Of a DNA stretch of 23,140 bases, positions 8,787 to 23,140 are shown piece after piece (position 1 is the stretch's first letter; each line of letters opens with the position of its first letter). The translations under genes and the position numbers were made by a program. This DNA comes from a virus. Taxonomy: Duplodnaviria; Heunggongvirae; Uroviricota; Caudoviricetes. Below the pieces are notes generated by a model. That model was not told the DNA's origin and searched no databases. It saw only the letters and a list, made by a program, of their open reading frames with translations. The stretch lies in IMG/VR virus record IMGVR_UViG_2869924733_000002, one strand, 5' to 3'.

Positions 8787-9887
8787 GGGACACAGCCTAG
8801 CCATTAATCACCCCATAGTGAAGAAAAGTTACTGCTGGCTGCTGGCTGTGATACCTGCTCAGATTGCGGCAATGTCTGCGACGAAGAAGAAGTTCCTCTG
8901 TCAACTGCTGAAATAACCCGCAAAGCATCATAAGCTCGACCAGAAGCAGCTTTCAGCGAATTGAACTGGTTTTCCATCTTCCGGCGCTTGGTATCAATGG
9001 TTTTTGTGGAGTCGCCAGGCTGAGGGAAATACATTTGATAATATTTTGACATTTCAGCAGGTGCGATAGCTGCCCCTGTTTCCTGACGGAGTATTGCCAT
9101 TATTGCGTCATTAGCATTAACAACGTATTGCTGCTCTGTTGGGCTGAGCGTTAAGTTAGCCAGCGTCCCATTACCCAAAGCATTATTAATGATCGCCACT
9201 CGCTGTGGGCTAAGCTGGTCTTTCAGTGTATCTATTGAATCAAGAGCATCCCTAACCCTGTATGCAAATCCAGCAGCTTTTTTAGCCCCTTCTGGCGACT
9301 TTTCCATGATCTTTTGGGCTGTTGGCAAAGCTATTGGACGAAACCCATCTCCAGATATTGGCTGGTTTAGTTTTCCCTGCTCTTCACTTCCGTCTGTGTA
9401 GTATTTTGTGACAGTGCCATCATCGTTTTCTCTAACACTCATTAATTTTTTGGCGTTTGTATTAATTCCAGCCGCTGCCGCAAATGCCGCCGCCCCCTCT
9501 GGATCCGCCTTTAACATTTGAGCGTACTGATTGTAATTCTGCATTGCTGCTGTTGGTGCATATGCTGACGTTAACGCATTTGCTCGGCTAATATCCTGCC
9601 CTCTCGCCTGAAGTGCTTCGCCAGCCTGATTGCTGCGGATTGTCTCTGCCAACTTGCCACGCTCAATATCCCGACCTTCCATTTGATCTTTGATATCGAA
9701 ATACTTCTCATGACCGAGAGAAAACAGTGCCATACTACCAGCAAGCCGCTGGAATCCCTGTGGATCATTAACATGCATTTCGGCAACAGACTCAGGAGAA
9801 ATTCCCAAGCGACGCATTTCATCTTCGTTATCTGCTATGAATTTTCCAAATGCCCCAGTTCCGAGCGAAGATGCGATTTGAGCACTA

Positions 9888-11040
9888 AATAGCTGCGCTT
9901 AATACCGCTACACTTTTGCCAGTCCATGTTTGCCTCCGGGGAATGGGCTGACGGTTTCCATAAAATGGCGAACTTTTTTCAACAGTTGCCACATTGAGCG
10001 GCACTGATGATTACGCGTTATTGTGTCGTGAAGTGCCTGCCATAGCCGTTCAACATGATTCACCCATGGCGAGTAAACCGGCTGATAAATGACCCTGAAC
10101 TTCGGGTTCTCCTTCAGCCAGCTCTGTGTTTCCCGGCTTTTGTGGATAATGTAGTTGTCCACGATCAGCGTGATGGTTTTCGCCCGACGGTATGTCGCTT
10201 TAAGCCGCTTCAGCAGGCTGATGAACAGCGCCGAACTTTTGCTGTTGCCGCCCACATAGCTGACTTTACCTGTCCCGCTGTGCAGCGCTCCGGCCAGATA
10301 ATATTTTTCATTCTGTCCCGGCGTGACCACCCGTTTTTGCTGTCCGCGCAGTTGCCAGTCCGCACCGATTTTGGGATGAAGATGGATATCCACTTCATCT
10401 TCATAAAAGACCGGATGCTCTGCGCTGCATTCGTCCAGTGCTTTATGGATTGCTGCCATCTTTTCATCTTTATGCGGGTCACGGATACGCAGAGTTGGCG
10501 CAGCCCTTCGCCACACAATCCCCGCAGACGGCAACCAGCGGCGAACGGTTCCGGCATTTAACTGGCAACCGGTTATCTCATTGATTTTTATTGCCAGCAG
10601 TTCTGTACTCCAGCGTGAACGCTGGTAGCCAAAGTCGCCGGGAGAATGTTTTACCAGCTCACGTAACAGTGTGCAGATATGCTCAAACGGCCAGCGACGG
10701 GCACGCCCGGCAGGTAATGATTTCAGTCCCTCAACACCCGACTGCGTGAACCAGTTAATCCAGCGTCCAACAGAGGAACGGGCGCAGCAGAGCGTTCTGG
10801 CAACGTCGCTGACACGGTCGCCCCGGTGCAGCATCAGCATGGCAGTCAGTCTGCGGGCATAATTTTTATCGTGTGTTTTATGGATGGCTTTCTGCATCAG
10901 GCGTCGTTCGTCACGGGAAATTGGTGCTATGATCGGCATTGCTCAGTCCGGTTGGTGATTTGTTTTGATTTGGCGATTGATCAGATCGCACAATCCGGGC
11001 TAAGTTCCCTCAAAATGATCTACTATTCCGCGCAGCTATT
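9888..11040 (-). mobile_element. IS630 (1153 bp) inserted at a CTAG target with TA duplication
   Basis: Terminal inverted repeats: aatagctgcgc at 9888-9898 and its reverse complement gcgcagctatt at 11030-11040. TA at 9886-9887 and 11041-11042. Length is exactly 1153 bp, matching the recalled IS630 size. Confidence 0.9.
9908..10939 (-). CDS. IS630-family transposase (343 aa)
   Basis: Full-length 343-aa ORF inside the IS630 boundaries, recognised as the Tc1/mariner-like IS630 transposase. Confidence 0.9.
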   Translation of the reverse strand: MPIIAPISRDERRLMQKAIHKTHDKNYARRLTAMLMLHRGDRVSDVARTLCCARSSVGRWINWFTQSGVEGLKSLPAGRARRWPFEHICTLLRELVKHSPGDFGYQRSRWSTELLAIKINEITGCQLNAGTVRRWLPSAGIVWRRAAPTLRIRDPHKDEKMAAIHKALDECSAEHPVFYEDEVDIHLHPKIGADWQLRGQQKRVVTPGQNEKYYLAGALHSGTGKVSYVGGNSKSSALFISLLKRLKATYRRAKTITLIVDNYIIHKSRETQSWLKENPKFRVIYQPVYSPWVNHVERLWQALHDTITRNHQCRSMWQLLKKVRHFMETVSPFPGGKHGLAKV

Positions 11041-11379
11041 TAGTCGCAAGATGACCAATAGAATTTCTCTGGTCGTCATCAATAAAGCCCATCCCTTTCT
11101 GAACGCTTTCAAATTCTTCTGGATACTCAGAAATAAGACTGCGCATTTTGTTTCTGTCTCCAGACTCAAAAGCCCCGGCATATGCTTTCTGAAACTCTGC
11201 TTTACGCTGTTGTTGACGTGCCTGCTGATTAATCTCAGCAACGCCTCTTAGCCCCTGTAGCGCCATTAAACCTACGTTTGGGTGCTGCTGATACTGCACA
11301 GGCTGAGGAACGGAAGAACGAGGAGCATTATCATTTTGCGGTGCCATGCTAGGCAGCCCGCCAAGTTGCCATGTCGCCA

Positions 11380-12057
11380 TTAGAATCCAAGCCCCCCAAC
11401 AAGACCAATAAGCCCACCACCAATAGCCCCGGCGACATTACCTATACCCGGAACAACGGAACCAAGTTGCGCACCCGCTAAAGCGCCTGATGCCGCCCCA
11501 CCAATACCACGCGCAAGACTGGATGGCTGCTGCGCCTGACCTGCACGAATAGCGCCAAGCCCCTGCAAGAGTTGCCCGGTATTATTGGCGTAGTTTTGCC
11601 CTGCTGTTGCCTGCCCTGATGCCGCATTCATCCCGACATTTAGCAGGTTTCCATAATTTTGCATTTGCCCACTGAGCCAATTGTTATAAAGCATGGGCGC
11701 AATGGAAGATAACTGGTTACTGGTAGCTGTTGAGCCAAGCCCCCCGGTAGCTTCTGCTGAGACAAGGTTCTGATAACGGGCCTGATCTGCCTGTGTTTTA
11801 TATAAACCAGAACCAAAGAAATCATTCGCGGCTTTATTCTGCCCTTCCAGAGTCATCAGTCCTTGCAGTTGTTGTAAAGCAGGCAATCCGACTTCTGCAT
11901 ACGGCTTGAGATTATTCATCACCGTATTCCACTGCTCGCGCTGCAAATCAATTGCCTGCTGCTGGGCCTTCGCCTGAGCTTTAGAGGCACCACCATCACC
12001 GCCTTTTTCGTATACGGCACGATTGAGATGTTTATGAGCTATATGGGTAATTAACAT
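11380..12057 (-). CDS. Hypothetical protein (225 aa) with Gly/Ala-rich glycine-zipper C-terminus; ejection-protein-like (tentative)
   Basis: C-terminal ...GIGGAASGALAGAQLGSVVPGIGNVAGAIGGGLIGLVGGLGF. Stop overlaps the next start (TAATG); start overlaps the upstream gene by 7 nt. Confidence 0.65.
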   Translation of the reverse strand: MLITHIAHKHLNRAVYEKGGDGGASKAQAKAQQQAIDLQREQWNTVMNNLKPYAEVGLPALQQLQGLMTLEGQNKAANDFFGSGLYKTQADQARYQNLVSAEATGGLGSTATSNQLSSIAPMLYNNWLSGQMQNYGNLLNVGMNAASGQATAGQNYANNTGQLLQGLGAIRAGQAQQPSSLARGIGGAASGALAGAQLGSVVPGIGNVAGAIGGGLIGLVGGLGF

Positions 12058-12512
12058 TCGCTGAATTCCTTATATTGTTGCCGAGTTAACTGATAAAGCG
12101 TTACGCCGACGGGTTTACCACATCTGATATAAGCATCATCAAGGTGACCAACACGGGTAGCGCCAAGCAAACGGATAATTGCCCGTCCATATTTCGTGGT
12201 GTCAGGAACCATAGTGATGCTGTTAAGGAATGGTGAGTTTTCGAGAAGCCATTTGCAGAATAATCGATGCCCTTGCAGTGCATATTCACCACGGAATCCG
12301 GGGTCGTACACCGCATGGCATTCAACAACGCTATGCCAGAAGTTACGCACTTCATGAACGCCAGCCAGCACTAATCCTTCGTAGATGCCGAGATATACCG
12401 CATCAGGCTTGATGTAGTACGTGTGCCCCGGCTCAACAATATTTTCGGTATTGCCTGGCTCGTTAAGAAAGGCCTGTAATCGCACAGGGTTATCAATAAA
12501 TTTTAGTTCCAT
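12051..12512 (-). CDS. Hypothetical protein (153 aa), first large gene of the operon
   Basis: ATG at 12512 lies 16 bp after the stop of the 53-aa ORF. Protein-like composition; no family recognised. Confidence 0.6.
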   Translation of the reverse strand: MELKFIDNPVRLQAFLNEPGNTENIVEPGHTYYIKPDAVYLGIYEGLVLAGVHEVRNFWHSVVECHAVYDPGFRGEYALQGHRLFCKWLLENSPFLNSITMVPDTTKYGRAIIRLLGATRVGHLDDAYIRCGKPVGVTLYQLTRQQYKEFSEC

Positions 12513-13274: not shown

Positions 13275-16034
13275 TCATTCTTCAGATGAGTTATAATCTC
13301 CTGGCTGGTAATTGAGTACATAAACGTTTATTTGTCGTCCCTGAATACGTGGTGATTTTCTTTGGTATCCACGACCGCTGTTTGGTGGGGTTAGCATCCC
13401 GGCTTTTTTCAACACTTCAGCAAACTGTTTTGCGTTGAAACCACATGCGATCTCCTTTTCAAATGTGGCCGGGAATGTGTAGAAAATCATTGGGCTTTCG
13501 TCATGTTCTCCACGCTGACGGTATCCGGCTAAATCTTTGATGGGCAAATCTGCCGGGCTGTATGGAAATGGTGCAAAACGGCTAAGCCCATAGGCATTAA
13601 GAAATGCCTCCGTTTGTTCAATAATCTGCTGATGTTCTTTGTTACCTGTGCCGAACTCGCGCAACCATGCGTTATAGCTGTGCTGTATCGCATCACGGCA
13701 TGTCTGAGCATCCCAGCCTGTTACAACCTCGCCTAACAGCAATGCGGCCTCCAGAATGGCAAATCGCGCGGCTACACGGTGAACCTGCTCACCATAATCG
13801 GATGGGATCAGGTTTCTCCATCTGCTTTCGCAATCACGAACGGTTTTAATAGCCTGTTGCTGGTGGTCTGCCAGCCATTTAATCCACTCACGCCCGGCTG
13901 CGCCGTGGTGATGCTGGTAAGCGTCTTTCAGTGCGTCTGCGTGCTGTTTTCCGTTCTGGTAATCGTGAAAGCGTACTGCTTTACTCAACGGAATATTCAG
14001 CAGTCGCACCAGTTGCCCGGCTTTGGTTTTTCGCCCGGAAGTAGCGATAAATGTTTCTAAATCCATTTCTCCGGTGCTGATTGCCACTGTACGCCAGCGT
14101 TTTAGATCCCGGTTTCCACCATCTTTAGCGCCTTGCAGTTTCCCTACACCGTTAAATAACGCATAGGCAGACTGTGAAACGCTGACAGGATCAGCGCCCT
14201 GACCAACTTCATCAAGCGGCATTAGTCCGTCATTGTGGGCGGCGGCCTCATTTGCCAGCCCCAGCGCGGTTCCGTACCACGTCAGCCGCAGTAAATCAGG
14301 GTTGCCGTATAAGCTGCTCGCCACGTTTGCCGTGGTGGTCTTACCTGCGCTCGACTGCTCATAGAAATGAATGCCGAACCCGTCAGCGCCCACCAGCCCA
14401 ATCAATGGCGCTGCCAGTGCTGCGCCGATCCCGGTCATCATTGAATAGTTACCAAAGGCCAGACGCGCCACGTTATCACGCCAGCTTTTCGCGCTCCCTG
14501 AGACGGTATATCCGGCTGCGGCTGAGCTTCTCCCGCTGAACAGCACAGGATTTTCAGGTGTTCCGATGATTTCCCCATCAGGCATGATGTACGCTCCGCA
14601 TTGCCAGCCAGTGGCATGAGCAACACGCCACAATTCACGAGAGCCACTGCGTTGTAGCCAGTCTGCCAGTATTGCTCTGAGGCTGCTTTTGGTCGTGACA
14701 TTTACCCCACCAGCTTTAAGTGTGCGCCATCCTTCACGTTCACCAATATCAGCCAGTGGAATGGCAGCGGTTGTCGGCGTTTCAGAACCAAACGACAGCC
14801 AGCGAAGAATGAGATACTGGTCTTTATCGTCTCTGCCAGTACCGATAACGCTTAACGGAGAACATAACCAGCTTTCGTTATTGATGATTTCTCCACTCTG
14901 GCTGTCAGCTCTCGGAGATACCCAATAAATACCATCCTCGCGGCTTTCTATTCTTGGTTTCAGTGGGTCGGTATCCATAACCTTAAAATCGCTTCCCTCA
15001 ATGGTCTGTGGCTCCTGTTTCACGCCATTACCCTGTGGTTGGTACATTGACTTATTGAACGCTTCTGTGGCGCATTTAATGCCGTGTTTTTGGTGGTAAT
15101 CATTCCAGTCTGCTTTGTGATCTGTCGGGGGTAATGCCACCCATCCAGAAACAGATAAAGCTGCTTTTTCTGCTGCTATTCTCCCCGTGTTTTGTCTTCC
15201 TTCGCTGTGGTCGTTATCCGCAGCAATGATGATTTGTGCTGAAGGAAATTTATCCCGCAGTACCTGGGCGACATATAACAGGTTCCCGGCATCAATCGCC
15301 GCCACTGTCAGCGCCTCTGGACGAATTAAATGGGCAGATAATGCCGTTGCCAGCCCTTCTGCGATTAAGATGCTCTGTGTTGTTTCTGGCGCGTTTATGG
15401 CGTGATATGCCCCCCGCTTTGCTGAACCTGTCAGGAGTCTTTTTTCACCATGTGATGTAATAGTCTGTGCTGCTGTGACTGCGCCGGATTTATCCACCAG
15501 CGCCAGCAACAGAGATCCATCGGGCAACACGGGGAATGTAAAATCACCTACCCCTTTCGCAACCAGATAATCAGATTTGCCGTTTACAGCCTTTCTGCGC
15601 ATGTCATCAAACTGACGGGAAAACGTATCCCGTCTTTGTTGTTCGTCCTTCTCTGCCCTTTTCAGGCGCTCCTGTTCGCGTCGCTGGCGCTCGGTTTCCA
15701 GTTGTTCCCGTTTCTGGCTGGTGGCTTCTGGTGTTTCCGTTGTCCGGTAATCAATACCCAGAACATCAGCGGCAAGAAGCGCCGCCTCTGTTGTGTCGCA
15801 GTTATTTACGCGTTTAATTAAATCCAGCCCATCACCAGCGCCGCACTGATTACAGATGAAGCTACCGCGCCCGTTGTCATCGAACCGGAATCGATCTTTG
15901 CCCCCACATGCAGGGCAGGGAGCATGACGGCGCGGAGAGTCAGGGACATTTATGTTCAGGCAGCCCAGCACATGAGGCCAGTTGTTTTCAGACGCACTGA
16001 TAACCTGACGGATAAGATCAATGTTTCGCATCAC
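13275..16034 (-). CDS. P4 alpha-like bifunctional DNA primase-helicase
   Basis: 919 aa. N-terminal Cys-rich zinc-binding motif (CPACGGKDRF...CNQCG), primase-like acidic motif (IIIAADNDHSEG), then a P-loop (EQSSAGKTT) in the helicase part. Start is GTG at 16034 or ATG at 16031. Confidence 0.9.
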   Translation of the reverse strand: MMRNIDLIRQVISASENNWPHVLGCLNINVPDSPRRHAPCPACGGKDRFRFDDNGRGSFICNQCGAGDGLDLIKRVNNCDTTEAALLAADVLGIDYRTTETPEATSQKREQLETERQRREQERLKRAEKDEQQRRDTFSRQFDDMRRKAVNGKSDYLVAKGVGDFTFPVLPDGSLLLALVDKSGAVTAAQTITSHGEKRLLTGSAKRGAYHAINAPETTQSILIAEGLATALSAHLIRPEALTVAAIDAGNLLYVAQVLRDKFPSAQIIIAADNDHSEGRQNTGRIAAEKAALSVSGWVALPPTDHKADWNDYHQKHGIKCATEAFNKSMYQPQGNGVKQEPQTIEGSDFKVMDTDPLKPRIESREDGIYWVSPRADSQSGEIINNESWLCSPLSVIGTGRDDKDQYLILRWLSFGSETPTTAAIPLADIGEREGWRTLKAGGVNVTTKSSLRAILADWLQRSGSRELWRVAHATGWQCGAYIMPDGEIIGTPENPVLFSGRSSAAAGYTVSGSAKSWRDNVARLAFGNYSMMTGIGAALAAPLIGLVGADGFGIHFYEQSSAGKTTTANVASSLYGNPDLLRLTWYGTALGLANEAAAHNDGLMPLDEVGQGADPVSVSQSAYALFNGVGKLQGAKDGGNRDLKRWRTVAISTGEMDLETFIATSGRKTKAGQLVRLLNIPLSKAVRFHDYQNGKQHADALKDAYQHHHGAAGREWIKWLADHQQQAIKTVRDCESRWRNLIPSDYGEQVHRVAARFAILEAALLLGEVVTGWDAQTCRDAIQHSYNAWLREFGTGNKEHQQIIEQTEAFLNAYGLSRFAPFPYSPADLPIKDLAGYRQRGEHDESPMIFYTFPATFEKEIACGFNAKQFAEVLKKAGMLTPPNSGRGYQRKSPRIQGRQINVYVLNYQPGDYNSSEE

Positions 16035-17810: not shown

Positions 17811-18001
17811 TTTTCACCCCCAAGAATTACCAGCTCGGCACGGGCATCGTTAACCAAAGATGAGCACGCTTTAATCGCATCCACGACATCAGTAGCGTCC
17901 ATTTCTTCAGCCGAAAGACTGACAGCAACCAGGACAGCCGCTGCTTGCTCGATTAATTGAAGTGCGGACGTAAGGCGAGGGGTATTAATTGAGTTATTCA
18001 T
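17807..18001 (-). CDS. Small hypothetical protein (64 aa; track ORF 17807..18058 trimmed to the internal ATG)
   Basis: [23 protein letters not shown]... The ATG at 18001 is preceded by a G-rich SD. Confidence 0.45.
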   Translation of the reverse strand: MNNSINTPRLTSALQLIEQAAAVLVAVSLSAEEMDATDVVDAIKACSSLVNDARAELVILGGEK

Positions 18002-19061
18002 TGGTTGCCCCCGTTTTTCCTGGCATTTCGCCACCTTCCAGCAGGAAATGAACGTCACGAACGGCGAGATCCAATATCGCGAGTAACGCCTTCAGTCTTT
18101 CGTCTCGTGAGGGAGAGTTGCTCACCAGAATGTCGTTAATCACTTCTGTCAGTGTGATGATCTGGCTTGTGCGTTCGAGGGGATCCATATGCACATCGTA
18201 GGTTTTAATCATGTGCCACCTCCATGCGGATACGACCAGCAAAAAAGCAGATGTGATCGCGCACCAGAGAACGGCGAGCATCGCGTTCAGACTCGGCAGC
18301 AATATGATGAATTTTGGCGGTAATTGTCGGGCAATCGCGGCGAACTGCGGCGATAATCCAGATAAATTGCGGTTTTTGGGTAGTGGTAGTAGCCAGCATG
18401 TGGCAGCCTCCTTGTACTGGGAGTTCTTCCCACCACCGGAGCTGCGAAACTCGCTGGTGGTGGACTGAACAGAGTTCGCAGTACCGGCGTACAAGGAAAC
18501 CGGCCAGCCTTTCGGCTGCCCTGTCCAGCCCACCATAATTTTGCAAGCGACGCGGATTATAACCGCATCACTGAAAAAAGTGTGAGTCTGGCTAACGGCA
18601 CAAAAAAAGACGCTCGGCGCGTCATGTGTCGCCTCGTACATTTCCGGGCTGCGAAACCCGGCACCCGTTTTATGAGGTGCCTTATAACCATAAACCGTGT
18701 TGCCGCATAACGGCAAGCTCTTTTTTATGGACTCCGAAAACTCACTATTGGAAGCACCAGATGCACAATACATCGCGCTCATTTCGTTAACGTCGCGCGT
18801 GTGGACGAAGGTTTTTGTGGAGTCACTACGCGAGCAGAGAAAGCCATCTACGACCAGAAATTCTCTGGCGCAGCCGCCGACCTTCTCAACGCTAACACCA
18901 TCGACCGTAATTTCTGACATAGTTAAGGCATCCGCTCCCACCACCAGAAAATGATAAACTTTGCTTGTATCTGCTGTATTAATGCCAGACTTTGCTGTCA
19001 TATTGCTGGATTTTGGCGACATACCAGCCAGTGAAAATATCTTCTTCTGGACGGTTAGCAT
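17994..19061 (-). CDS. Gene with a strong start at 19061; the 355-codon open frame has an ambiguous 3' end (see findings)
   Basis: ATG at 19061 with GGAGGT SD, 1 nt after the upstream stop. The N-terminal 150 or so residues look protein-like. The frame then stays open through a terminator-like hairpin (18601-18623), a structured region and an internal SD+ATG at 18212 (MIKTYDVH..., 72 aa). Confidence 0.4.
18205..18399 (-). CDS. Small hypothetical protein (64 aa) in an alternative frame
   Basis: AAGGAGG sits 7 nt upstream of the ATG at 18399 ([19 protein letters not shown]...). Its stop overlaps the internal ATG at 18212. Confidence 0.4.
   Translation of the reverse strand: MLATTTTQKPQFIWIIAAVRRDCPTITAKIHHIAAESERDARRSLVRDHICFFAGRIRMEVAHD
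18601..18623 (-). terminator. Putative intrinsic terminator or attenuator inside the long open frame
   Basis: Minus strand: GACGC-GCCGA-GCGTC hairpin followed by TTTTTTT. A TGA in another frame sits just before it. Confidence 0.35.
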
Positions 19062-19237
19062 TTGTTAACCTCCGCGAACTCCTTCATGAAGCGCGCCAGC
19101 GGTTGTACGCATGGCGATTGATACCCGTCGCGATAAAACGTCACTCGGTTGTGAGACACGCTTTCGACAGTAACGAGTGCTCCGTGGGCATCCTTGTAGC
19201 GTTTTTGAGGTTGTGGTGTTCCTGTCGGCTTAAACAT
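19055..19237 (-). CDS. Small hypothetical protein (60 aa; track ORF 19055..19324 trimmed to the internal ATG)
   Basis: GGAGGTGG lies 4 nt upstream of the ATG at 19237 (MFKPTGTPQPQKRYKDAHG...). The longer track start would overlap the upstream gene by about 95 nt. Confidence 0.5.
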   Translation of the reverse strand: MFKPTGTPQPQKRYKDAHGALVTVESVSHNRVTFYRDGYQSPCVQPLARFMKEFAEVNKC

Positions 19238-20063
19238 GGACCACCTCCAGACGCTTAGCGAGCCAGCGTTGCGACAGGCGGGTGAGTTCTCCTTTGCGCT
19301 GCTCATATTCCATGCCCATATCAATTAACGTGATATTGGTGCTTTCGAGATATGAGAGGTGCTCAAGTTGTTCTGCGTTCATATGGTCGCGAGGTTCGCC
19401 AGAATAGCCATTTATCCGCGCCCACTGCTTAGCAGTTAGCCCACCAAGAACGATACGAGAAATCATATTGCTCTCGTTTGTGTAGTGGTGTTGCTGCGTC
19501 GTTTTCCCCTGCTCGGCACGGGCCATATTCAGCGCATCGCACATTGGCTTAAAGTTGTTTGCGGCACTGATACGGGCTTTTAGCTGGCGACGATAGCGGG
19601 CGGCGATTTCAGGAACGCTACGCTGTAATTCTTCCTCGCACTGGATGAAATAACGGCGGATAGCGCGACCCTGATCATTGCGTTCGATCATTGCCAGTTC
19701 TTTCGCCATTCCGACACTTAACAGATAGTCTTTGCCGGGTCTGCCAGACTGCTTAATCTTTCTGTAAGCCGCGCCATTCGGGCTTTTCCCCAAATTTGGG
19801 GAAATAGTTTTATGGACTGAGTAATCGTGCCCAATGGTGAAGTCATATTCAGAGATGCGATCAGTGATCCATGTAGAGAAGTCTTTTCCCACGCCCAACG
19901 CTTTGTGTAACGCTTTTGCGCTAACAATATTGGTTTCACGCCCACCGATATGACCAGGAATAACCGGGACAATTGCGGCAAATTCATTACCGTTAATTGT
20001 GCTCAGAGAGGCGTTCAGATGAGGGGCGGCCTCAGAAATTAATCTGCTTTTTTCGATGTTCAT
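19230..20063 (-). CDS. Phage antirepressor/regulatory protein-like (Ant/KilAC/Rha-type), 277 aa
   Basis: The block SAKALHKALGVGKDFSTWITDRI ... KDYLLSVGMAKELAMIERNDQGRAIRRYFIQ resembles recalled antirepressor signatures. SD GGAGA before the ATG. Confidence 0.55.
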   Translation of the reverse strand: MNIEKSRLISEAAPHLNASLSTINGNEFAAIVPVIPGHIGGRETNIVSAKALHKALGVGKDFSTWITDRISEYDFTIGHDYSVHKTISPNLGKSPNGAAYRKIKQSGRPGKDYLLSVGMAKELAMIERNDQGRAIRRYFIQCEEELQRSVPEIAARYRRQLKARISAANNFKPMCDALNMARAEQGKTTQQHHYTNESNMISRIVLGGLTAKQWARINGYSGEPRDHMNAEQLEHLSYLESTNITLIDMGMEYEQRKGELTRLSQRWLAKRLEVVHV

Positions 20064-20075
20064 TTTCAGTCTCCG

Positions 20076-20507
20076 TTAAGCGGCGTTAAACGCGTCCGGG
20101 TAGAGTTTCAGAATGTCGGCAATTTCCTGCTGAGAAAGTCCGTTGTGATCATTTATGTTCGCAAGATGGTTAATATGAGTGATCACTTTCAGAACATCAC
20201 CACGGCAGGAGAAACGGTAGCGAAGGTGTGTTCCGATACCATCAGGATTCTTTTCGTCGATACGCTCCAGAGTGATTCCAAGCTGGCGTTCTAACTCTGT
20301 TGCATAGTTACGACCAGAAGACAGACGGCAGTAGCGAAGAATGTCATTTTCTGTCCATCCCTCTATACCAGTACGCAGCATATAGACTCTGGCACGATGC
20401 TTTTTCGGTGTGCGCTTTGGTGCTTGAAGGGATTTTGTAAGGGGCGTAACATCAGATACGCGAATATCTGAATTAGCCGCCTGTAATGGGCGGTTTTTCT
20501 TATTCAT
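20076..20507 (-). CDS. Hypothetical protein (143 aa) with a basic N-terminus
   Basis: Start overlaps the AlpA stop as TAATG. No family recognised. Confidence 0.55.
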   Translation of the reverse strand: MNKKNRPLQAANSDIRVSDVTPLTKSLQAPKRTPKKHRARVYMLRTGIEGWTENDILRYCRLSSGRNYATELERQLGITLERIDEKNPDGIGTHLRYRFSCRGDVLKVITHINHLANINDHNGLSQQEIADILKLYPDAFNAA

Positions 20508-20704
20508 TACGCTACCTCGCCACGCGACTCAGCGATGCGCTGATTAATCCATTCTTCAATTTCACTTTCAATAAACGCAATTGATCGGCTTCCAATCTTT
20601 ACAGATTGAGGGAATCGCTGTTCTTTGATGAGCCGATAAATCCACGCTTTGCTGTAACCAGTACGGCGTTGAACCTCAGAAAGACGAATAAATGATTGAG
20701 ACAT
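20507..20704 (-). CDS. alpA: AlpA-family phage transcriptional regulator / excisionase-like protein
   Basis: 65 aa, MSQSFIRLSEVQRRTGYSKAWIYRLIKEQRFPQSVKIGSRSIAFIESEIEEWI. SD AGGAG upstream. Confidence 0.85.
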   Translation of the reverse strand: MSQSFIRLSEVQRRTGYSKAWIYRLIKEQRFPQSVKIGSRSIAFIESEIEEWINQRIAESRGEVA

Positions 20705-20822
20705 GTTTACTCCTATATTCTGTCATCTTCTTTAATGGACATCAGTAGACAGAAAGGAGATTAAACAAACCGGTGAATGGGTGATAGCGGATAAAAATAA
20801 AATATTTTTTTGAGAAGATTAT

Positions 20823-20857
20823 CCGCTTTGAAATACACAGTAGCGTATTCAAAGCGG
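20823..20857. promoter_or_regulatory. Imperfect inverted repeat (13/14-bp arms) upstream of alpA; putative operator
   Basis: CCGCTTTGAAATAC - acagtagc - GTATTCAAAGCGG. No adjacent T-run on either strand, so it does not look like a terminator. Confidence 0.3.
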
Positions 20858-20901
20858 AAATCGCGAAATTTACTTAAAACGTTTACGTAGGATTTTGCTT
20901 G

Positions 20902-21783
20902 CTATAAATCTCTACTCATTAAATCAGATATTTTTATCAAGCTCATTTCTCTGTCTTTGTTTACATAAAGCTGAAGCAAGCGGGTGTATCTCTCGCTTAT
21001 AGATTCAAGTGCAAAAGGCTTTATTGATTCCTTAATAGCCTGCGTATCTTTCGGATCATCACTAAAAACCAAGGCAGAAATCATCGGATTGCTCACTTCC
21101 TTACCTGACTTCTCACCCCAAATCAGCAGATCAACAATAGGTATCACTCTATTAGATATCAACTTCTGAAGGGTCTTTAATCCAATCCTTTTCTGAGCGA
21201 CATGCTCTCTCTCTGGTACTTTTAACTCTTTTCGCCATAGAGGTAGAAGGTGAGTCAGGCTGGTAATAATTTCGTCATCAGTGGCGTCATCTAAATCTAT
21301 AGAAACGAGTATGATGTTAGGGGAACAATTACTTAGGTTTCCAGTAACACTCGCAAGCATAGCGTTTGCCTTGAGGTAGCAATCCTCTTCGTCTCTTTTA
21401 AAAAAGCCTTGATCTATCGATGAGAAAGAGTACATGGCCAGCTCTGAAAATGTTACTGGACTAACCCCCATAGCTGAAGATAATGAGGGAAGATCATCGT
21501 ACTCATTTCTTAATGATGGGGCTTCATCATTTACTTTGCGAATAAATTCTTCGACCTCTTCCTCTTCTTCATTGAGAATGGTTAGGTTAGGATCGCCCGA
21601 AAAAATCCTTTCATATTTTATATCGTACTCTTCTTTGAATATAGCAGTGTCATCTTTTGCATGACGCAATAAAAAATCGCGCCACTCTAATTCTTGAATC
21701 AAGTCCGGCAAGGTTAAATCATTTAAAAATTCATAATTACTAATATCAAACCATGCTAAATCTTGTTTTTTGGCTCTCACCAT
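20902..21783 (-). CDS. Hypothetical acidic protein (293 aa), AT-rich cargo gene between integrase and alpA
   Basis: Visibly AT-richer than its neighbours. G-rich SD before the ATG at 21783. Acidic stretch ILNEEEEEVEEF. No recognisable family. Confidence 0.65.
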   Translation of the reverse strand: MVRAKKQDLAWFDISNYEFLNDLTLPDLIQELEWRDFLLRHAKDDTAIFKEEYDIKYERIFSGDPNLTILNEEEEEVEEFIRKVNDEAPSLRNEYDDLPSLSSAMGVSPVTFSELAMYSFSSIDQGFFKRDEEDCYLKANAMLASVTGNLSNCSPNIILVSIDLDDATDDEIITSLTHLLPLWRKELKVPEREHVAQKRIGLKTLQKLISNRVIPIVDLLIWGEKSGKEVSNPMISALVFSDDPKDTQAIKESIKPFALESISERYTRLLQLYVNKDREMSLIKISDLMSRDL

Positions 21784-21925
21784 ACGCCACCCCGCGCCCC
21801 TAATTCTGACGGCTATGCCAGCCCGTAGGGGTGTACGGGTTTTCGGGGATCAGCCTAGACATAGCCTATTCTTTGTTCGTCTACATAAGTCTACTACCAT
21901 TGCTTAACACGGTCTATTCATACAG

Positions 21926-23140
21926 TTAAGCTCGTTTCCCAAACGAACCATGAACAACGTTCTCCTCCTTCTCCAGCGCATCCATATAGTCGGCATACCA
22001 TTGAAGCATCTCCCGCCTTCCATCCAGATATTGCGCATGGTTGTATGTGCCACGAATTGAGTTCTTATCAACGTGAGCGAGCTGCGTTTCTATCCACGCG
22101 GTGTTATAGCCCTGCTCATGCAAAATCGTGCTCATAGTGTGCCGGAACCCATGACCAGTTACACGTCCAGCGTAGCCAATGCGCTTAAACACTTGGTTTA
22201 TGCTGGCCTCACTCATTGTTTTCCTTGGATCATTGCGCCCGGGAAACATAAGAGGGTAATTGCCTGTTATTTCTCTAATCTTCCCAATAAGCGAAAGAGC
22301 CTGATCAGACAATGGCACAATATGAGGCCGCCGCATTTTCATACGTGAAGCGGGTATCTCCCAGATAGCCTTGTTGAAATCAATTTCATCCCATAATGCG
22401 CCACGTAGTTCGCCAGTCCGCAAGCCGGTGATAATCAGTAGACGAGCCGCCATAACAACCAATGCGCTTCCTGAGTAACTGGACAATGCCTTGAAAAAAT
22501 CAGGTAATTCTTTAGCTGTAAGGAAAGGGTAATGATTAGATTCATGGCCTTGCATCGCGCTAGTAAGGTCTGGTGCAGGGTTATACTCTGCGCGACCAGT
22601 GACTATTGCATAGCGGAAAACTTCCCCGCACCGCTGCCTCACTTTTTTGGCTTTTTCTGTAGCACCGCGCCCCTCGATGCGCCGCAGCACATTCAGAAGT
22701 TCAAGTGGTTTGATTTCGGCGATTGGTTTTTTGCCAATGTAAGGGAACACATCTTTGTTGAAGGCTTCGAGGATGTCTGAAGCATAACCAGCAGACCATT
22801 TTTTTAATTTGCTGCTGTGCCACTCAAGGGCAATATCTTTGAAGGTGTTGTTTAACTGCGTTTCCCGGGCAATCTTTTCCTCTCGTTTCGCTTCCATCGG
22901 ATCGATACCACCAGCGATACCTCTTTTCGCATCTTCACGTTTTGCCCGAGCATCGGCTAGAGTAACCTCAGGATACACACCTAGTGCCAATAGCTTCTCT
23001 TTACCAGCTACACGATATTTAAGTCGCCAGTATTTACCTCCATTAGGTTTTACCAAGAGATACAAACCGCCACCATCGGCCAGCTTGTAAGCCTTCTCTT
23101 TTGGCTTGGCTGTGTCTATTTGACGGGCATTGAGTTTCAC
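21926..23140 (-). CDS. P4-type tyrosine integrase (N-terminal arm-binding domain plus catalytic domain), 5' end at the window edge
   Basis: N-terminus AKPKEKAYKLADGGGLYLLVKPNGGKYWRLKYRVAGKEKLLALGVYPEVTLADARAKR is the P4-integrase arm-binding signature. Catalytic region has HGFRHTMSTILHEQG and the HAQY tyrosine motif. The GTG at 23138-23140 is probably one codon short of the real start. Confidence 0.9.
   Translation of the reverse strand: MKLNARQIDTAKPKEKAYKLADGGGLYLLVKPNGGKYWRLKYRVAGKEKLLALGVYPEVTLADARAKREDAKRGIAGGIDPMEAKREEKIARETQLNNTFKDIALEWHSSKLKKWSAGYASDILEAFNKDVFPYIGKKPIAEIKPLELLNVLRRIEGRGATEKAKKVRQRCGEVFRYAIVTGRAEYNPAPDLTSAMQGHESNHYPFLTAKELPDFFKALSSYSGSALVVMAARLLIITGLRTGELRGALWDEIDFNKAIWEIPASRMKMRRPHIVPLSDQALSLIGKIREITGNYPLMFPGRNDPRKTMSEASINQVFKRIGYAGRVTGHGFRHTMSTILHEQGYNTAWIETQLAHVDKNSIRGTYNHAQYLDGRREMLQWYADYMDALEKEENVVHGSFGKRA

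What the first reader, a model, noticed from the sequence alone, without database searches (positions are those of the whole stretch)
20902..21783. AT-rich, acidic 293-aa orphan gene between integrase and alpA: candidate anti-phage or accessory cargo
The gene sits in the variable slot next to the integrase, where P4-like and related elements are known to carry defence cargo. It has a markedly lower GC content than its neighbours, its own SD and intergenic spacers on both sides, and no motif I can place in a known family.
Basis: inference. Interest (0 to 1): 0.6.

Follow-up and report, generated by a model that had tools for sequence, protein, structure and literature searches.

The report
Swappable satellite cargo gene with RNA leader
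The gene is real and belongs to a known family of unknown function (DUF6387); it is one of several interchangeable cargo genes between the integrase and alpA genes of a phage-satellite island, all preceded by the same structured RNA leader, but a role in phage defence is untested.

Summary
The ORF is real: 20902-21783 on the minus strand, 293 aa, pI 4.6, GC 0.38, between a P4-type integrase and alpA. It is under purifying selection (dN/dS 0.07-0.21). It is not an orphan. It is a full-length member of Pfam DUF6387 (PF19924, 132 bits), identical to RefSeq WP_000251023.1, with 517 clusters in an exhaustive search. Two structure models (best pLDDT 86) match no solved fold, and there is no PADLOC hit.

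The host element is an EcCIMP1-type PICI at thrW. Sibling elements at the same site have the slot empty or filled by other genes, so the 'variable slot' idea holds.

Two points were not in the finding. First, the Rfam int-alpA RNA (RF02996) lies 14 nt upstream of the start codon. The same RNA, in register, precedes at least three unrelated AT-rich genes in other elements, so it behaves as a shared 5' leader of a cargo slot. Its hairpin loop is complementary to the Shine-Dalgarno sequence (98.5% paired, two compensatory changes). Second, DUF6387 lies directly upstream of alpA in every locus with enough sequence except one where an IS has disrupted alpA, across at least five element types.

Function remains unknown. 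Conflict-related accessory cargo is the most likely reading, and an AlpA-linked modulator is the main rival.

The parts
21926..23140 (-). P4-family tyrosine integrase (404 aa). It is the first gene of the element, next to the thrW attachment site, which lies beyond the window end.
   Evidence: Pfam Arm-DNA-bind_3, Phage_int_M and Phage_integrase. Annotated as an integrase next to tRNA-Thr/proA in identical E. coli loci.
21879..21894 (-). GTAGAC-N4-GTAGAC direct repeats with a 10-bp period, just downstream of the int stop and upstream of the RNA leader. They are candidate binding sites for the Int arm domain or for AlpA.
   Evidence: Found at -96 to -108 from the cargo ATG in nearly all related loci. 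Inverted sets lie between the att/tRNA end and the int start.
21798..21865 (-). int-alpA RNA motif (Rfam RF02996). Here it is the 5' leader of the DUF6387 ORF, and its 3' end is 14 nt from the ATG.
   Evidence: 46.7 bits against GA 35.8, full model. The position is the same in 5 other DUF6387 loci. RF02996 passes GA before unrelated cargo genes in L046, L047 and L048, and my own model R1 also hits before the fourth, L045. Stems P0 and P2 are supported by covariation.
21828..21833 (-). Loop of hairpin P2, 5'-CACCCC-3' (CACCUC in most relatives). It is a proposed anti-SD sequence.
   Evidence: Complementary to the SD in 98.5% of cells across 22 leaders, with two independent double-sided compensatory changes.
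21788..21793 (-). Shine-Dalgarno element GGGGUG (GAGGUG in most relatives), at -10..-5 from the ATG.
   Evidence: Alignments A5 and A7. Pair counts.
20902..21783 (-). DUF6387 family protein (293 aa): soluble, mostly alpha-helical, with confidently modelled N-terminal and C-terminal parts. This is the finding itself.
   Evidence: PF19924 at 132 bits. Homologues and alignment. dN/dS 0.07-0.21. AF2 model pLDDT 86.3 with no structural match.
20820..20862 (-). Very stable hairpin about 40-80 nt after the stop codon (core CCGCUUUGAAU / AUUCAAAGCGG at 20824-20858). It resembles a terminator or a 3'-end stabiliser but is not followed by a clean U-tract.
   Evidence: The region folds at -27.2 kcal/mol, z = -5.45, 0 of 200 shuffles as stable. 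A hairpin sits at the same position with different stem sequences in other loci. The consensus terminator scan did not call it.
20735..20750 (+). ATGGAC-ATCA-GTAGAC repeat about 30 nt upstream of alpA, inverted relative to the set at 21879-21894.
   Evidence: The sequence reads directly. The equivalent site lies at -31 from alpA in L009, L032 and L033.
20507..20704 (-). alpA (65 aa). AlpA is the master activator/excision regulator of PICIs and the invariant downstream neighbour of DUF6387.
   Evidence: PF05930 E 8.9e-20. Adjacent in 16 of 16 subfamily loci. Role taken from PMC11773190.

Best explanation
The gene encodes a DUF6387-family protein that is a dispensable, swappable accessory cargo gene. 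It occupies the integrase-proximal slot (int-alpA) of an EcCIMP1-type phage-inducible chromosomal island integrated at thrW.

The slot behaves as an expression cassette. Directly after int come short protein-binding-type repeats, then a conserved structured leader (the Rfam int-alpA RNA). The leader ends 14-15 nt before the start codon of whichever cargo ORF is present. A stable hairpin follows the ORF, and then comes alpA.

The loop of the leader's second hairpin (CACCUC, or CACCCC here) can pair with the Shine-Dalgarno sequence (GAGGUG, or GGGGUG here). The most likely role of the RNA is therefore to hold translation of the cargo down until some signal or refolding frees the ribosome-binding site.

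The protein is soluble and mostly alpha-helical, with no catalytic motif. It most likely acts by binding another protein. By analogy with other cargo at the ends of PICIs, its role is most likely in conflict between phage, satellite and host: interference with, or defence against, incoming phages.

Shown here: the gene is real and under selection; it belongs to the family; the slot is polymorphic; the leader is shared and in register; stems P0 and P2 covary.

Inferred: the loop-SD pairing acts as a translational brake; the nature of the trigger; the protein's target and any anti-phage activity.
For: Gene and family:
- PF19924 at 132 bits over the full length.
- 47 close clusters and 517 representative clusters.
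- dN/dS 0.07-0.21.

Element identity:
- The gene content matches the published PICI EcCIMP1 at the same proA/thrW site: int, alpA, AntA, DUF4222, C4/isrK-Ash, Toprim-DUF927 primase, P22-like ejection proteins and PerC.

Dispensable and swappable:
- The gene is in 87 of 5,426 E. coli genomes. Several hundred genomes carry about 90% identical int and alpA without it.
- The slot is empty in L019 and L021, and L020 has a 130-aa ORF on the opposite strand.
- The whole spacer is replaced from the int 3' end to the alpA RBS.
- EcCIMP1 excises and transfers without DUF6387.

Shared leader:
- RF02996 lies at -84..-15 in the window and in L005, L006, L007, L012 and L013.
- Model R1 hits in register at 67-123 bits in 22 loci. 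These include four loci whose slot genes are unrelated to DUF6387 (HMM scores 0.1 bits or less) and fall into three unrelated groups, all AT-rich.
- RF02996 itself passes its gathering score in L046, L047 and L048.
- The leader is absent from the empty-slot siblings.

Leader structure:
- P0 is 98.0% paired with 4 covarying pairs. P2 is 94.5% paired with 4 covarying pairs.
- The loop-SD helix is 98.5% paired, with two pairs changed on both sides plus wobble intermediates.
- Slid controls give 35-51% paired.

Context:
- PICIs are reported to carry immune systems at their 5' or 3' ends (PMC11364771).
- Low GC is intrinsic to the gene in every host: 0.32-0.40 against flanks of 0.41-0.55.
Against: - There is no direct evidence of any anti-phage activity.
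- PADLOC gives no hit for DUF6387 or for any alternative occupant.
- No sequence match to any PDB chain.
- DUF6387 was never seen outside the position directly upstream of alpA in about 30 loci. These include element types that lack the RNA leader and where int is not adjacent (EARL/ROD21-like, CP4-57-like). This is unusual for promiscuous defence cargo and fits a functional tie to AlpA.
- The leader is not unusually stable thermodynamically (z = -1.08 alone, +0.28 with the SD region).
- The loop-SD pairing rests on only two compensatory events. An alternative pairing of the loop with an upstream AGAGG element is also 94% complementary.
- Rfam classes the RNA as an sRNA gene, so a trans role is not excluded.
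Confidence: 0.5

Rival explanations
1. DUF6387 is a functional partner of AlpA. It would be an optional modulator of the AlpA-type activator/recombination directionality factor, for example an anti-activator, co-factor or signal sensor. It would tune when the island excises or is induced, rather than acting on phages directly.
For: - DUF6387 lies directly upstream of alpA on the same strand in 16 of 16 close loci. The spacer is almost fixed at 181-222 nt, mostly 196-198.
- The same holds in distant clades at 22-28% identity in four other element types: CP4-57-like islands, where it is flanked by DUF3987 rather than int; a cf-PICI-like 17-kb circle, where it overlaps the int stop; IMG/VR prophage-end loci; and EARL/ROD21-like islands, where int is at the other end of the island.
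- The gene is embedded between repeats of the kind bound by Int or RDF proteins.
Against: - Unrelated proteins replace it behind the same leader.
- Close sibling elements lack any occupant.
- EcCIMP1, which lacks it, excises, autoregulates alpA and transfers normally.
- No DNA-binding motif or fold was recognised.
- Constant adjacency could simply reflect the region upstream of alpA being the general cargo hotspot of AlpA-bearing islands.
Confidence: 0.25
2. DUF6387 is an establishment or anti-defence factor. It would be an acidic protein made together with integrase on entry into a new host, protecting the incoming element, for example as an anti-restriction DNA mimic.
For: - The window protein is acidic: pI 4.62, net -20, with a run of E at residues 72-79.
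- It lies just downstream of int with no predicted terminator in between.
- In one distant member it overlaps the int stop codon, which suggests co-expression with int.
Against: - Acidity is not conserved in the family. pI ranges from 4.6 to 9.4 with a median of 5.3.
- No structural similarity to ArdA, Ocr or any other solved protein was found.
- One alternative occupant of the same slot is basic (pI 8.4).
Confidence: 0.08
3. The ORF is a decaying or selfish remnant with no function for the element or the host. It is retained only by linkage with int and alpA.
For: - It is absent from most related elements.
- It is AT-rich and may be silenced.
- In two E. coli genomes an IS4-like element interrupts the matched int-alpA region, but where it sits relative to the gene was not examined.
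Against: - Length is strictly conserved at 292-297 aa.
- 65 alignment columns are invariant across 30 sequences from 10 or more genera.
- dN/dS is 0.07-0.21.
- The translation leader is conserved and in register.
Confidence: 0.03

Closest known systems
Pfam PF19924 (DUF6387), including the uncharacterised '843 bp gene' that accompanies the RDF gene in ROD21-like (EARL) genomic islands such as ICEKp258.2
   Same: It matches the HMM over its full length and has the same size class. It occupies the same position directly upstream of an AlpA-family gene on the same strand.
   Different: The window protein belongs to a tight subfamily, at least 43% identical, found in PICI-type satellites between int and alpA and preceded by the int-alpA RNA leader. 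The EARL and CP4-57-like members are only 22-27% identical. They lack that leader and are not next to int.
Accessory/immune regions at the ends of PICIs (Fillol-Salom et al., as cited in PMC11364771), and the int-alpA slot gene EcCIMP1_002 of the PICI EcCIMP1 (PMC11773190)
   Same: The element family and attachment site are the same. The slot between int and alpA is the same, and the gene is dispensable for the satellite life cycle.
   Different: No immune activity has been shown for DUF6387, and it matches no PADLOC model. EcCIMP1_002 is a small, unrelated ORF. The shared structured leader in front of the cargo is not described in any paper that was searchable here.
int-alpA RNA motif, Rfam RF02996, listed by Rfam as type 'Gene; sRNA'
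   Same: The window copy matches the full model above the gathering score. It lies between int and alpA, as the name implies.
   Different: In all 22 loci examined it lies on the coding strand, with its 3' end 14-15 nt upstream of the start codon of a slot ORF. It is absent when the slot is empty. It behaves as a cis-acting 5' leader with an anti-SD loop, not as a free-standing sRNA between int and alpA.
Defence hotspot of P4-like satellites between psu and int (Rousset et al. 2022, cited in PMC13612085)
   Same: It is an integrase-adjacent, polymorphic, AT-rich cargo position in an Enterobacterales phage satellite with conserved flanks.
   Different: The element has no annotated psu, delta or sid, and the slot is bounded by alpA rather than psu. 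The occupants here are single genes of unknown function with no PADLOC match, and they share a conserved RNA leader.

Membership tests
Pfam PF19924 DUF6387 | Whole-protein HMM score above the curated gathering score (28.9 bits), covering most of the 258-position profile | tested here: met
   132 bits, E 3.7e-38, protein residues 5-269 on profile positions 6-256 of 258. All 47 close homologues carry PF19924.
Pfam PF19924 DUF6387 | Conserved gene neighbourhood: directly upstream of an AlpA-family gene on the same strand. This is an empirical feature from this study and from PMC6035254, not part of the Pfam definition. | tested here: met
   alpA lies 197 nt downstream in the window. Adjacent in 16 of 16 close loci and in distant loci.
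Gram-negative PICI, EcCIMP1 type | int at one end, followed in the same orientation by alpA, then a replication (primase) gene | tested here: met
   int 21926-23140, alpA 20507-20704 and Toprim/DUF927 primase 13275-16034 are all on the minus strand.
Gram-negative PICI, EcCIMP1 type | Same attachment site and accessory content as EcCIMP1: proA/thrW, antirepressor, Ash, 'DNA transfer' proteins and a PerC-like regulator | tested here: met
   Annotated loci L001 and L003, compared with the description in PMC11773190.
Gram-negative PICI, EcCIMP1 type | Induction, excision and packaging by a helper phage | not testable with these tools
   This needs experiments. It has been shown only for EcCIMP1 with phage Kapi1.
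P4-like satellites | Capsid-hijacking module psu-delta-sid | tested here: not met
   No such genes appear in the RefSeq annotation of the complete, 99.9% identical element. They were not searched for with dedicated HMMs.
Known or candidate anti-phage defence systems (PADLOC-DB 2.0.0) | Match to a defence-protein HMM | tested here: not met
   No hit at E up to 1 for DUF6387, and none at E up to 0.1 for the four alternative slot occupants.
Known or candidate anti-phage defence systems | Protection against phage when expressed | not testable with these tools
   This needs cloning and a phage challenge.
Rfam RF02996 int-alpA RNA (the 5' flank of the gene) | Covariance-model score above the gathering score of 35.8 bits | tested here: met
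   46.7 bits, model positions 1-71 of 71, window 21798-21865 minus strand.
DNA-mimic anti-restriction proteins (ArdA/Ocr type) | Strongly acidic character conserved through the family, and the corresponding fold | tested here: not met
CP4-57 slot gene yfjH (E. coli K-12, between intA and alpA) | Sequence similarity | tested here: not met
   BLASTP E = 1.2. yfjH also lies on the opposite strand.

The most novel reading that the evidence does not exclude
The int-alpA RNA is a cis-acting riboregulator that gates translation of a set of interchangeable, possibly toxic effector genes in a dedicated 'plug-in' slot of phage satellites. DUF6387 and the other leader-driven occupants would then be new families of anti-phage or helper-interference proteins, switched on by a common signal such as helper infection or Int/AlpA binding at the adjacent repeats.
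Probability: 0.25. Interest if true: 0.75.

Novelty: new variant of a known kind. Interest (0 to 1): 0.5.

Why it matters
If the reading is right, three things follow.

1. A structured RNA that Rfam lists as an sRNA gets a concrete and testable role. It would be the shared translational leader of a polymorphic cargo slot in phage satellites.

2. Searching for that RNA becomes a simple way to harvest unknown cargo genes in satellites. At least four unrelated families were seen here. These are good candidates for new phage-defence or helper-interference functions.

3. DUF6387 has been noticed next to the RDF of ROD21-like pathogenicity islands and of ICEKp258.2 of K. pneumoniae ST258 without explanation. 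It now has a defined set of contexts and two sharp alternatives, conflict cargo or AlpA modulator, which a few deletions and phage challenges could separate.

If instead the gene has no phenotype, the result is still useful. The finding would then be an ordinary member of a known DUF in a known type of accessory region.

Tried and rejected
- K-12 CP4-57 yfjH, the gene between intA and alpA, is unrelated to this protein (BLASTP E 1.2).
- NCBIfam and PADLOC give no hit. PHROGs gives only an unknown-function family, phrog_23422.
- A second search with the 40-sequence alignment in the word-indexed protein database added only 4 distant members.
One viral-contig scan (P0049) found nothing.
- Phage genomes: the only tblastn hit was a Salmonella chromosomal contig, so the gene is not a phage gene.
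- The DNA-mimic idea was rejected because acidity is not conserved.
- A helix-turn-helix in the basic stretch 181-226 was considered by eye and dropped. The second helix (VIPIVDLLIW) is hydrophobic, and no HTH family matched.
- The consensus promoter/terminator scan found no sigma-70 site in either spacer. It did not call the post-gene hairpin, whose loop is too long and which has no clean U-tract.
- My first search for the GTAGAC repeats used the wrong spacing (N5) and found nothing. N4 was correct.
- Weinberg et al. 2017 was checked for a description of the int-alpA motif. The main text says nothing and the supplements are not held.
- Thermodynamic stability of the leader is not exceptional, so the case for its structure rests on covariation.
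Full report
**Observation**

The ORF is present as described, but on the minus strand: 20902..21783, ATG start, 293 aa. Its upstream neighbour is a P4-type tyrosine integrase (21926..23140, minus). Its downstream neighbour is an AlpA-family gene (20507..20704, minus). GC is 0.380 (GC3 0.36), against 0.476 for int and 0.46-0.51 for most of the element. pI is 4.62. The spacers are 142 and 197 nt.

The gene is a real coding gene. Homologues of almost fixed length (292-297 aa) occur in Escherichia, Salmonella, Klebsiella, Yersinia, Pantoea, Pectobacterium, Providencia, Morganella, Xenorhabdus and others, down to 43% identity. Across 30 of these sequences, 65 alignment columns are invariant. Pairwise dN/dS is 0.07-0.21.

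The low GC belongs to the gene itself. It is 0.32-0.40 in every host, whatever the flanks (0.41-0.55).

**It is not an orphan**

The protein matches Pfam PF19924 (DUF6387) over its full length, at 132 bits against a cut-off of 28.9. It is identical to RefSeq WP_000251023.1, 'DUF6387 family protein'. An exhaustive profile search of 1.84 billion representatives finds 517 clusters at E up to 1e-3, almost all 250-330 aa long.

Nothing is known about function. NCBIfam and PADLOC give no hit, and PHROGs gives only an unknown-function family. Only two papers in the library mention DUF6387, both in gene tables.

Two AlphaFold models were built. The second, from a 40-sequence diverse alignment, is confident (pLDDT 86.3, pTM 0.76). 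It shows a mostly alpha-helical protein with well-modelled N- and C-terminal parts. Structure and sequence searches found no relative:
- Foldseek gives a best E-value of 2.3.
- A profile search of PDB sequences finds nothing.

**What the element is**

The window is 100% identical over the 1.9-kb int-alpA region, and 99.2-99.9% over about 85% of its length, to loci in E. coli O111 and other strains. There the element is integrated at tRNA-Thr (thrW) next to proA.

Its content is int, DUF6387, alpA, a 143-aa protein, AntA, DUF4222, an Ash/Icd-like region with C4 and isrK RNAs, a Toprim-DUF927 primase, P22-like ejection-protein genes and a PerC-family regulator. This matches EcCIMP1, a PICI at the same site. 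EcCIMP1 is induced and packaged by the P22-like phage Kapi1, and AlpA is its master regulator (PMC11773190). No psu, delta or sid is annotated, so the element is not P4-like in the strict sense.

**The slot is variable**

The gene occurs in 87 of 5,426 complete E. coli genomes. Several hundred genomes carry about 90% identical int and alpA without it.

Sibling elements at the same thrW site with the same backbone differ in the slot. Their int-alpA spacer is empty (392 or 651 nt) or holds a 130-aa ORF on the other strand. Homology breaks from the last 50 nt or so of int to the alpA ribosome-binding site, so the whole spacer is exchanged. EcCIMP1 has yet another small ORF there and is fully functional. 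PICIs are reported to carry immune systems at their 5' (int) or 3' ends (PMC11364771).

**A structured RNA leader**

The 142-nt gap is not empty. Rfam finds the int-alpA RNA (RF02996) at 21798..21865 on the coding strand (46.7 bits, GA 35.8). Its 3' end lies 14 nt before the ATG. The same RNA sits at the same distance in Yersinia, Providencia, Shimwellia, Morganella and a metagenomic locus whose protein is only 45% identical. It is absent from the empty-slot siblings and from CP4-57.

In E. coli the leader matches 127 genomes, about 40 more than carry the gene. In four of those extra loci the leader precedes other genes: 239 aa, 265 aa, about 310 aa (annotated as 337 aa with a start inside the RNA), and a split 106+147 aa version of the 265-aa type. 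These proteins do not match PF19924 or PADLOC. They score 0.1 bits or less with HMMs built from my DUF6387 alignments, and they form three mutually unrelated groups. All are AT-rich.

A covariance model of leader plus SD plus ATG hits 22 loci in register at 67-123 bits. Rfam's own model passes its gathering score in front of three of the unrelated genes. The RNA therefore behaves as the common 5' leader of whatever ORF occupies the slot, not as a free-standing sRNA, although Rfam labels it 'Gene; sRNA'.

**Structure of the leader**

On 22 leaders the outer stem P0 is 98.0% paired, with four pairs changed on both sides. Hairpin P2 is 94.5% paired, also with four such pairs. Sliding the partners by 1-3 columns gives 35-51% pairing.

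The P2 loop reads CACCUC and the Shine-Dalgarno sequence reads GAGGUG. In the window they are CACCCC and GGGGUG. In L045 the loop C to U change is matched by SD G to A. This loop-SD helix is 98.5% paired, with two independent compensatory changes and wobble intermediates.

An alternative pairing of the loop with an upstream AGAGG element is weaker: 94.4% paired, one compensatory change and six broken cells. Thermodynamic stability is unremarkable (z = -1.08). With the SD region included, the minimum-energy fold is a different structure that also buries the SD region.

I read this as a translational brake on the cargo. The evidence is suggestive, not proven.

**Other features around the gene**

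A very stable hairpin follows the gene. The region folds at -27.2 kcal/mol with z = -5.45. In other loci a hairpin sits at the same place with different stem sequences.

GTAGAC-N4-GTAGAC repeats with a 10-bp period lie in three places:
- just after the int stop (21879-21894);
- in inverted orientation between the attachment end and the int start in related loci;
- in some loci, about 30 nt upstream of alpA (20735-20750 in the window, in degenerate form).

They look like binding sites of the Int arm domain or of AlpA.

**DUF6387 is always next to alpA**

In 16 of 16 close loci with enough sequence, alpA follows on the same strand after 181-222 nt, mostly 196-198. This holds whatever the rest of the element is: DUF927-primase satellites, a D5-type primase element, or lambdoid prophage-like regions.

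Distant members (22-28% identity) show the same adjacency in other element types:
- CP4-57-like islands, with the order DUF3987, DUF6387, alpA, yfjJ. In one of these an IS disrupts alpA, and in another the downstream 72-aa gene is only a weak AlpA match.
- A 17-kb circular Klebsiella 'plasmid' that looks like an excised capsid-forming PICI.
- Prophage-end loci from IMG/VR.
- ROD21-like (EARL) islands, where int is at the far end.

The EARL authors wrote that the RDF gene 'is accompanied by an 843 bp gene of unknown function' in most islands (PMC6035254). The gene is essentially absent from phage genomes.

**Weighing the explanations**

Three facts make DUF6387 an accessory cargo gene rather than a core component:
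- unrelated genes are exchanged behind one leader;
- some sibling elements have an empty slot;
- EcCIMP1 functions without it.

Given where PICIs keep immune genes, I put a role in phage-satellite-host conflict first (confidence 0.5 for the whole statement). That the gene is swappable cargo is much more certain than that it is anti-phage.

The strict linkage to alpA holds across deep divergence, and also where int and the leader are absent. It is the main argument for the rival, an optional modulator of AlpA-dependent excision or induction (0.25).

An anti-restriction DNA mimic is unlikely, because acidity is not conserved (pI 4.6-9.4) and no matching fold was found (0.08).

A functionless remnant is contradicted by purifying selection (0.03).

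**Novelty and score**

The protein family, the PICI family and the idea of accessory regions at PICI ends are all known. Two things appear to be new, as far as the searchable literature shows:
- The int-alpA RNA is an in-register leader shared by unrelated cargo ORFs, with an anti-SD loop.
- DUF6387 is a near-universal upstream neighbour of alpA across at least five kinds of integrative element.

I rate this a new variant of a known kind, with interest 0.5. It is worth a modest set of experiments, but no function has been demonstrated.

Noticed in passing
window 18453-18540 (-) and 18603-18680 (-): A C4 antisense RNA (RF01695, 81 bits) and an isrK RNA (RF01394, 69 bits) lie inside the 355-aa ORF 17994-19061, which RefSeq annotates as an 'ash family protein'. 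The long ORF is probably over-called, and the region resembles a P1/P7-type c4-icd/ant immunity module. The same pair occurs in the sibling elements.
   Followed up: partly
window about 8800-12512 (-); L003 8568-12935: The satellite carries homologues of P22-type DNA ejection/injection proteins and a DUF2824 protein downstream of the primase. This fits a P22-like helper such as Kapi1. In the window the ejection-protein gene appears split into two ORFs (9908-10939 and 11036-11380), whereas it is one gene in strain 6409.
   Followed up: no
window 21879-21894 (-) and 20735-20750 (+); related loci L005-L034: GTAGAC-N4-GTAGAC repeats with a 10-bp period bracket the int gene in inverted orientation and recur near alpA. 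They are likely Int-arm or AlpA binding sites. The empty-slot siblings have degenerate versions right after the int stop.
   Followed up: partly
L047 1567-2580 (E. coli LR-33, WP_003838289.1): The annotated start of this slot gene lies inside the int-alpA RNA. The leader register places the true ATG at 2499, giving about 310 aa rather than 337 aa.
   Followed up: partly
L036 (K. pneumoniae 'plasmid' CP018459.1, 16,971 bp, circular): This record carries terminase, capsid, tape-measure, integrase, a DUF6387-like gene that overlaps the int stop, and an AlpA gene. It looks like an excised capsid-forming PICI deposited as a plasmid.
   Followed up: partly
L010/L011 (Salmonella) and L033 (Pantoea): The int-leader-DUF6387-alpA module is joined to lambdoid prophage-like regions (Q antiterminator, holin, tail assembly; or an S24 repressor) instead of a primase satellite body. 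The module therefore recombines between different element backbones.
   Followed up: no
E. coli SD134209 and O111:H8 7-55 62A (hits H1, H2): An IS4-like ISVsa5 element interrupts the 1.9-kb int-DUF6387-alpA region in two genomes. In strain E2855 an IS1203 truncates the element just after antA.
   Followed up: no
window 20076-20507 (-): The 143-aa gene overlapping the alpA stop codon is conserved with alpA in all sibling elements. It has only a weak winged-helix hit (PF22324, E 0.017), and some genomes annotate its counterpart as a 'PM1773 family protein'.
   Followed up: no
window 19230-20063 (-): The C-terminal half of the AntA-family protein matches the PADLOC candidate model PDC-S22 (E 1e-10).
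   Followed up: no
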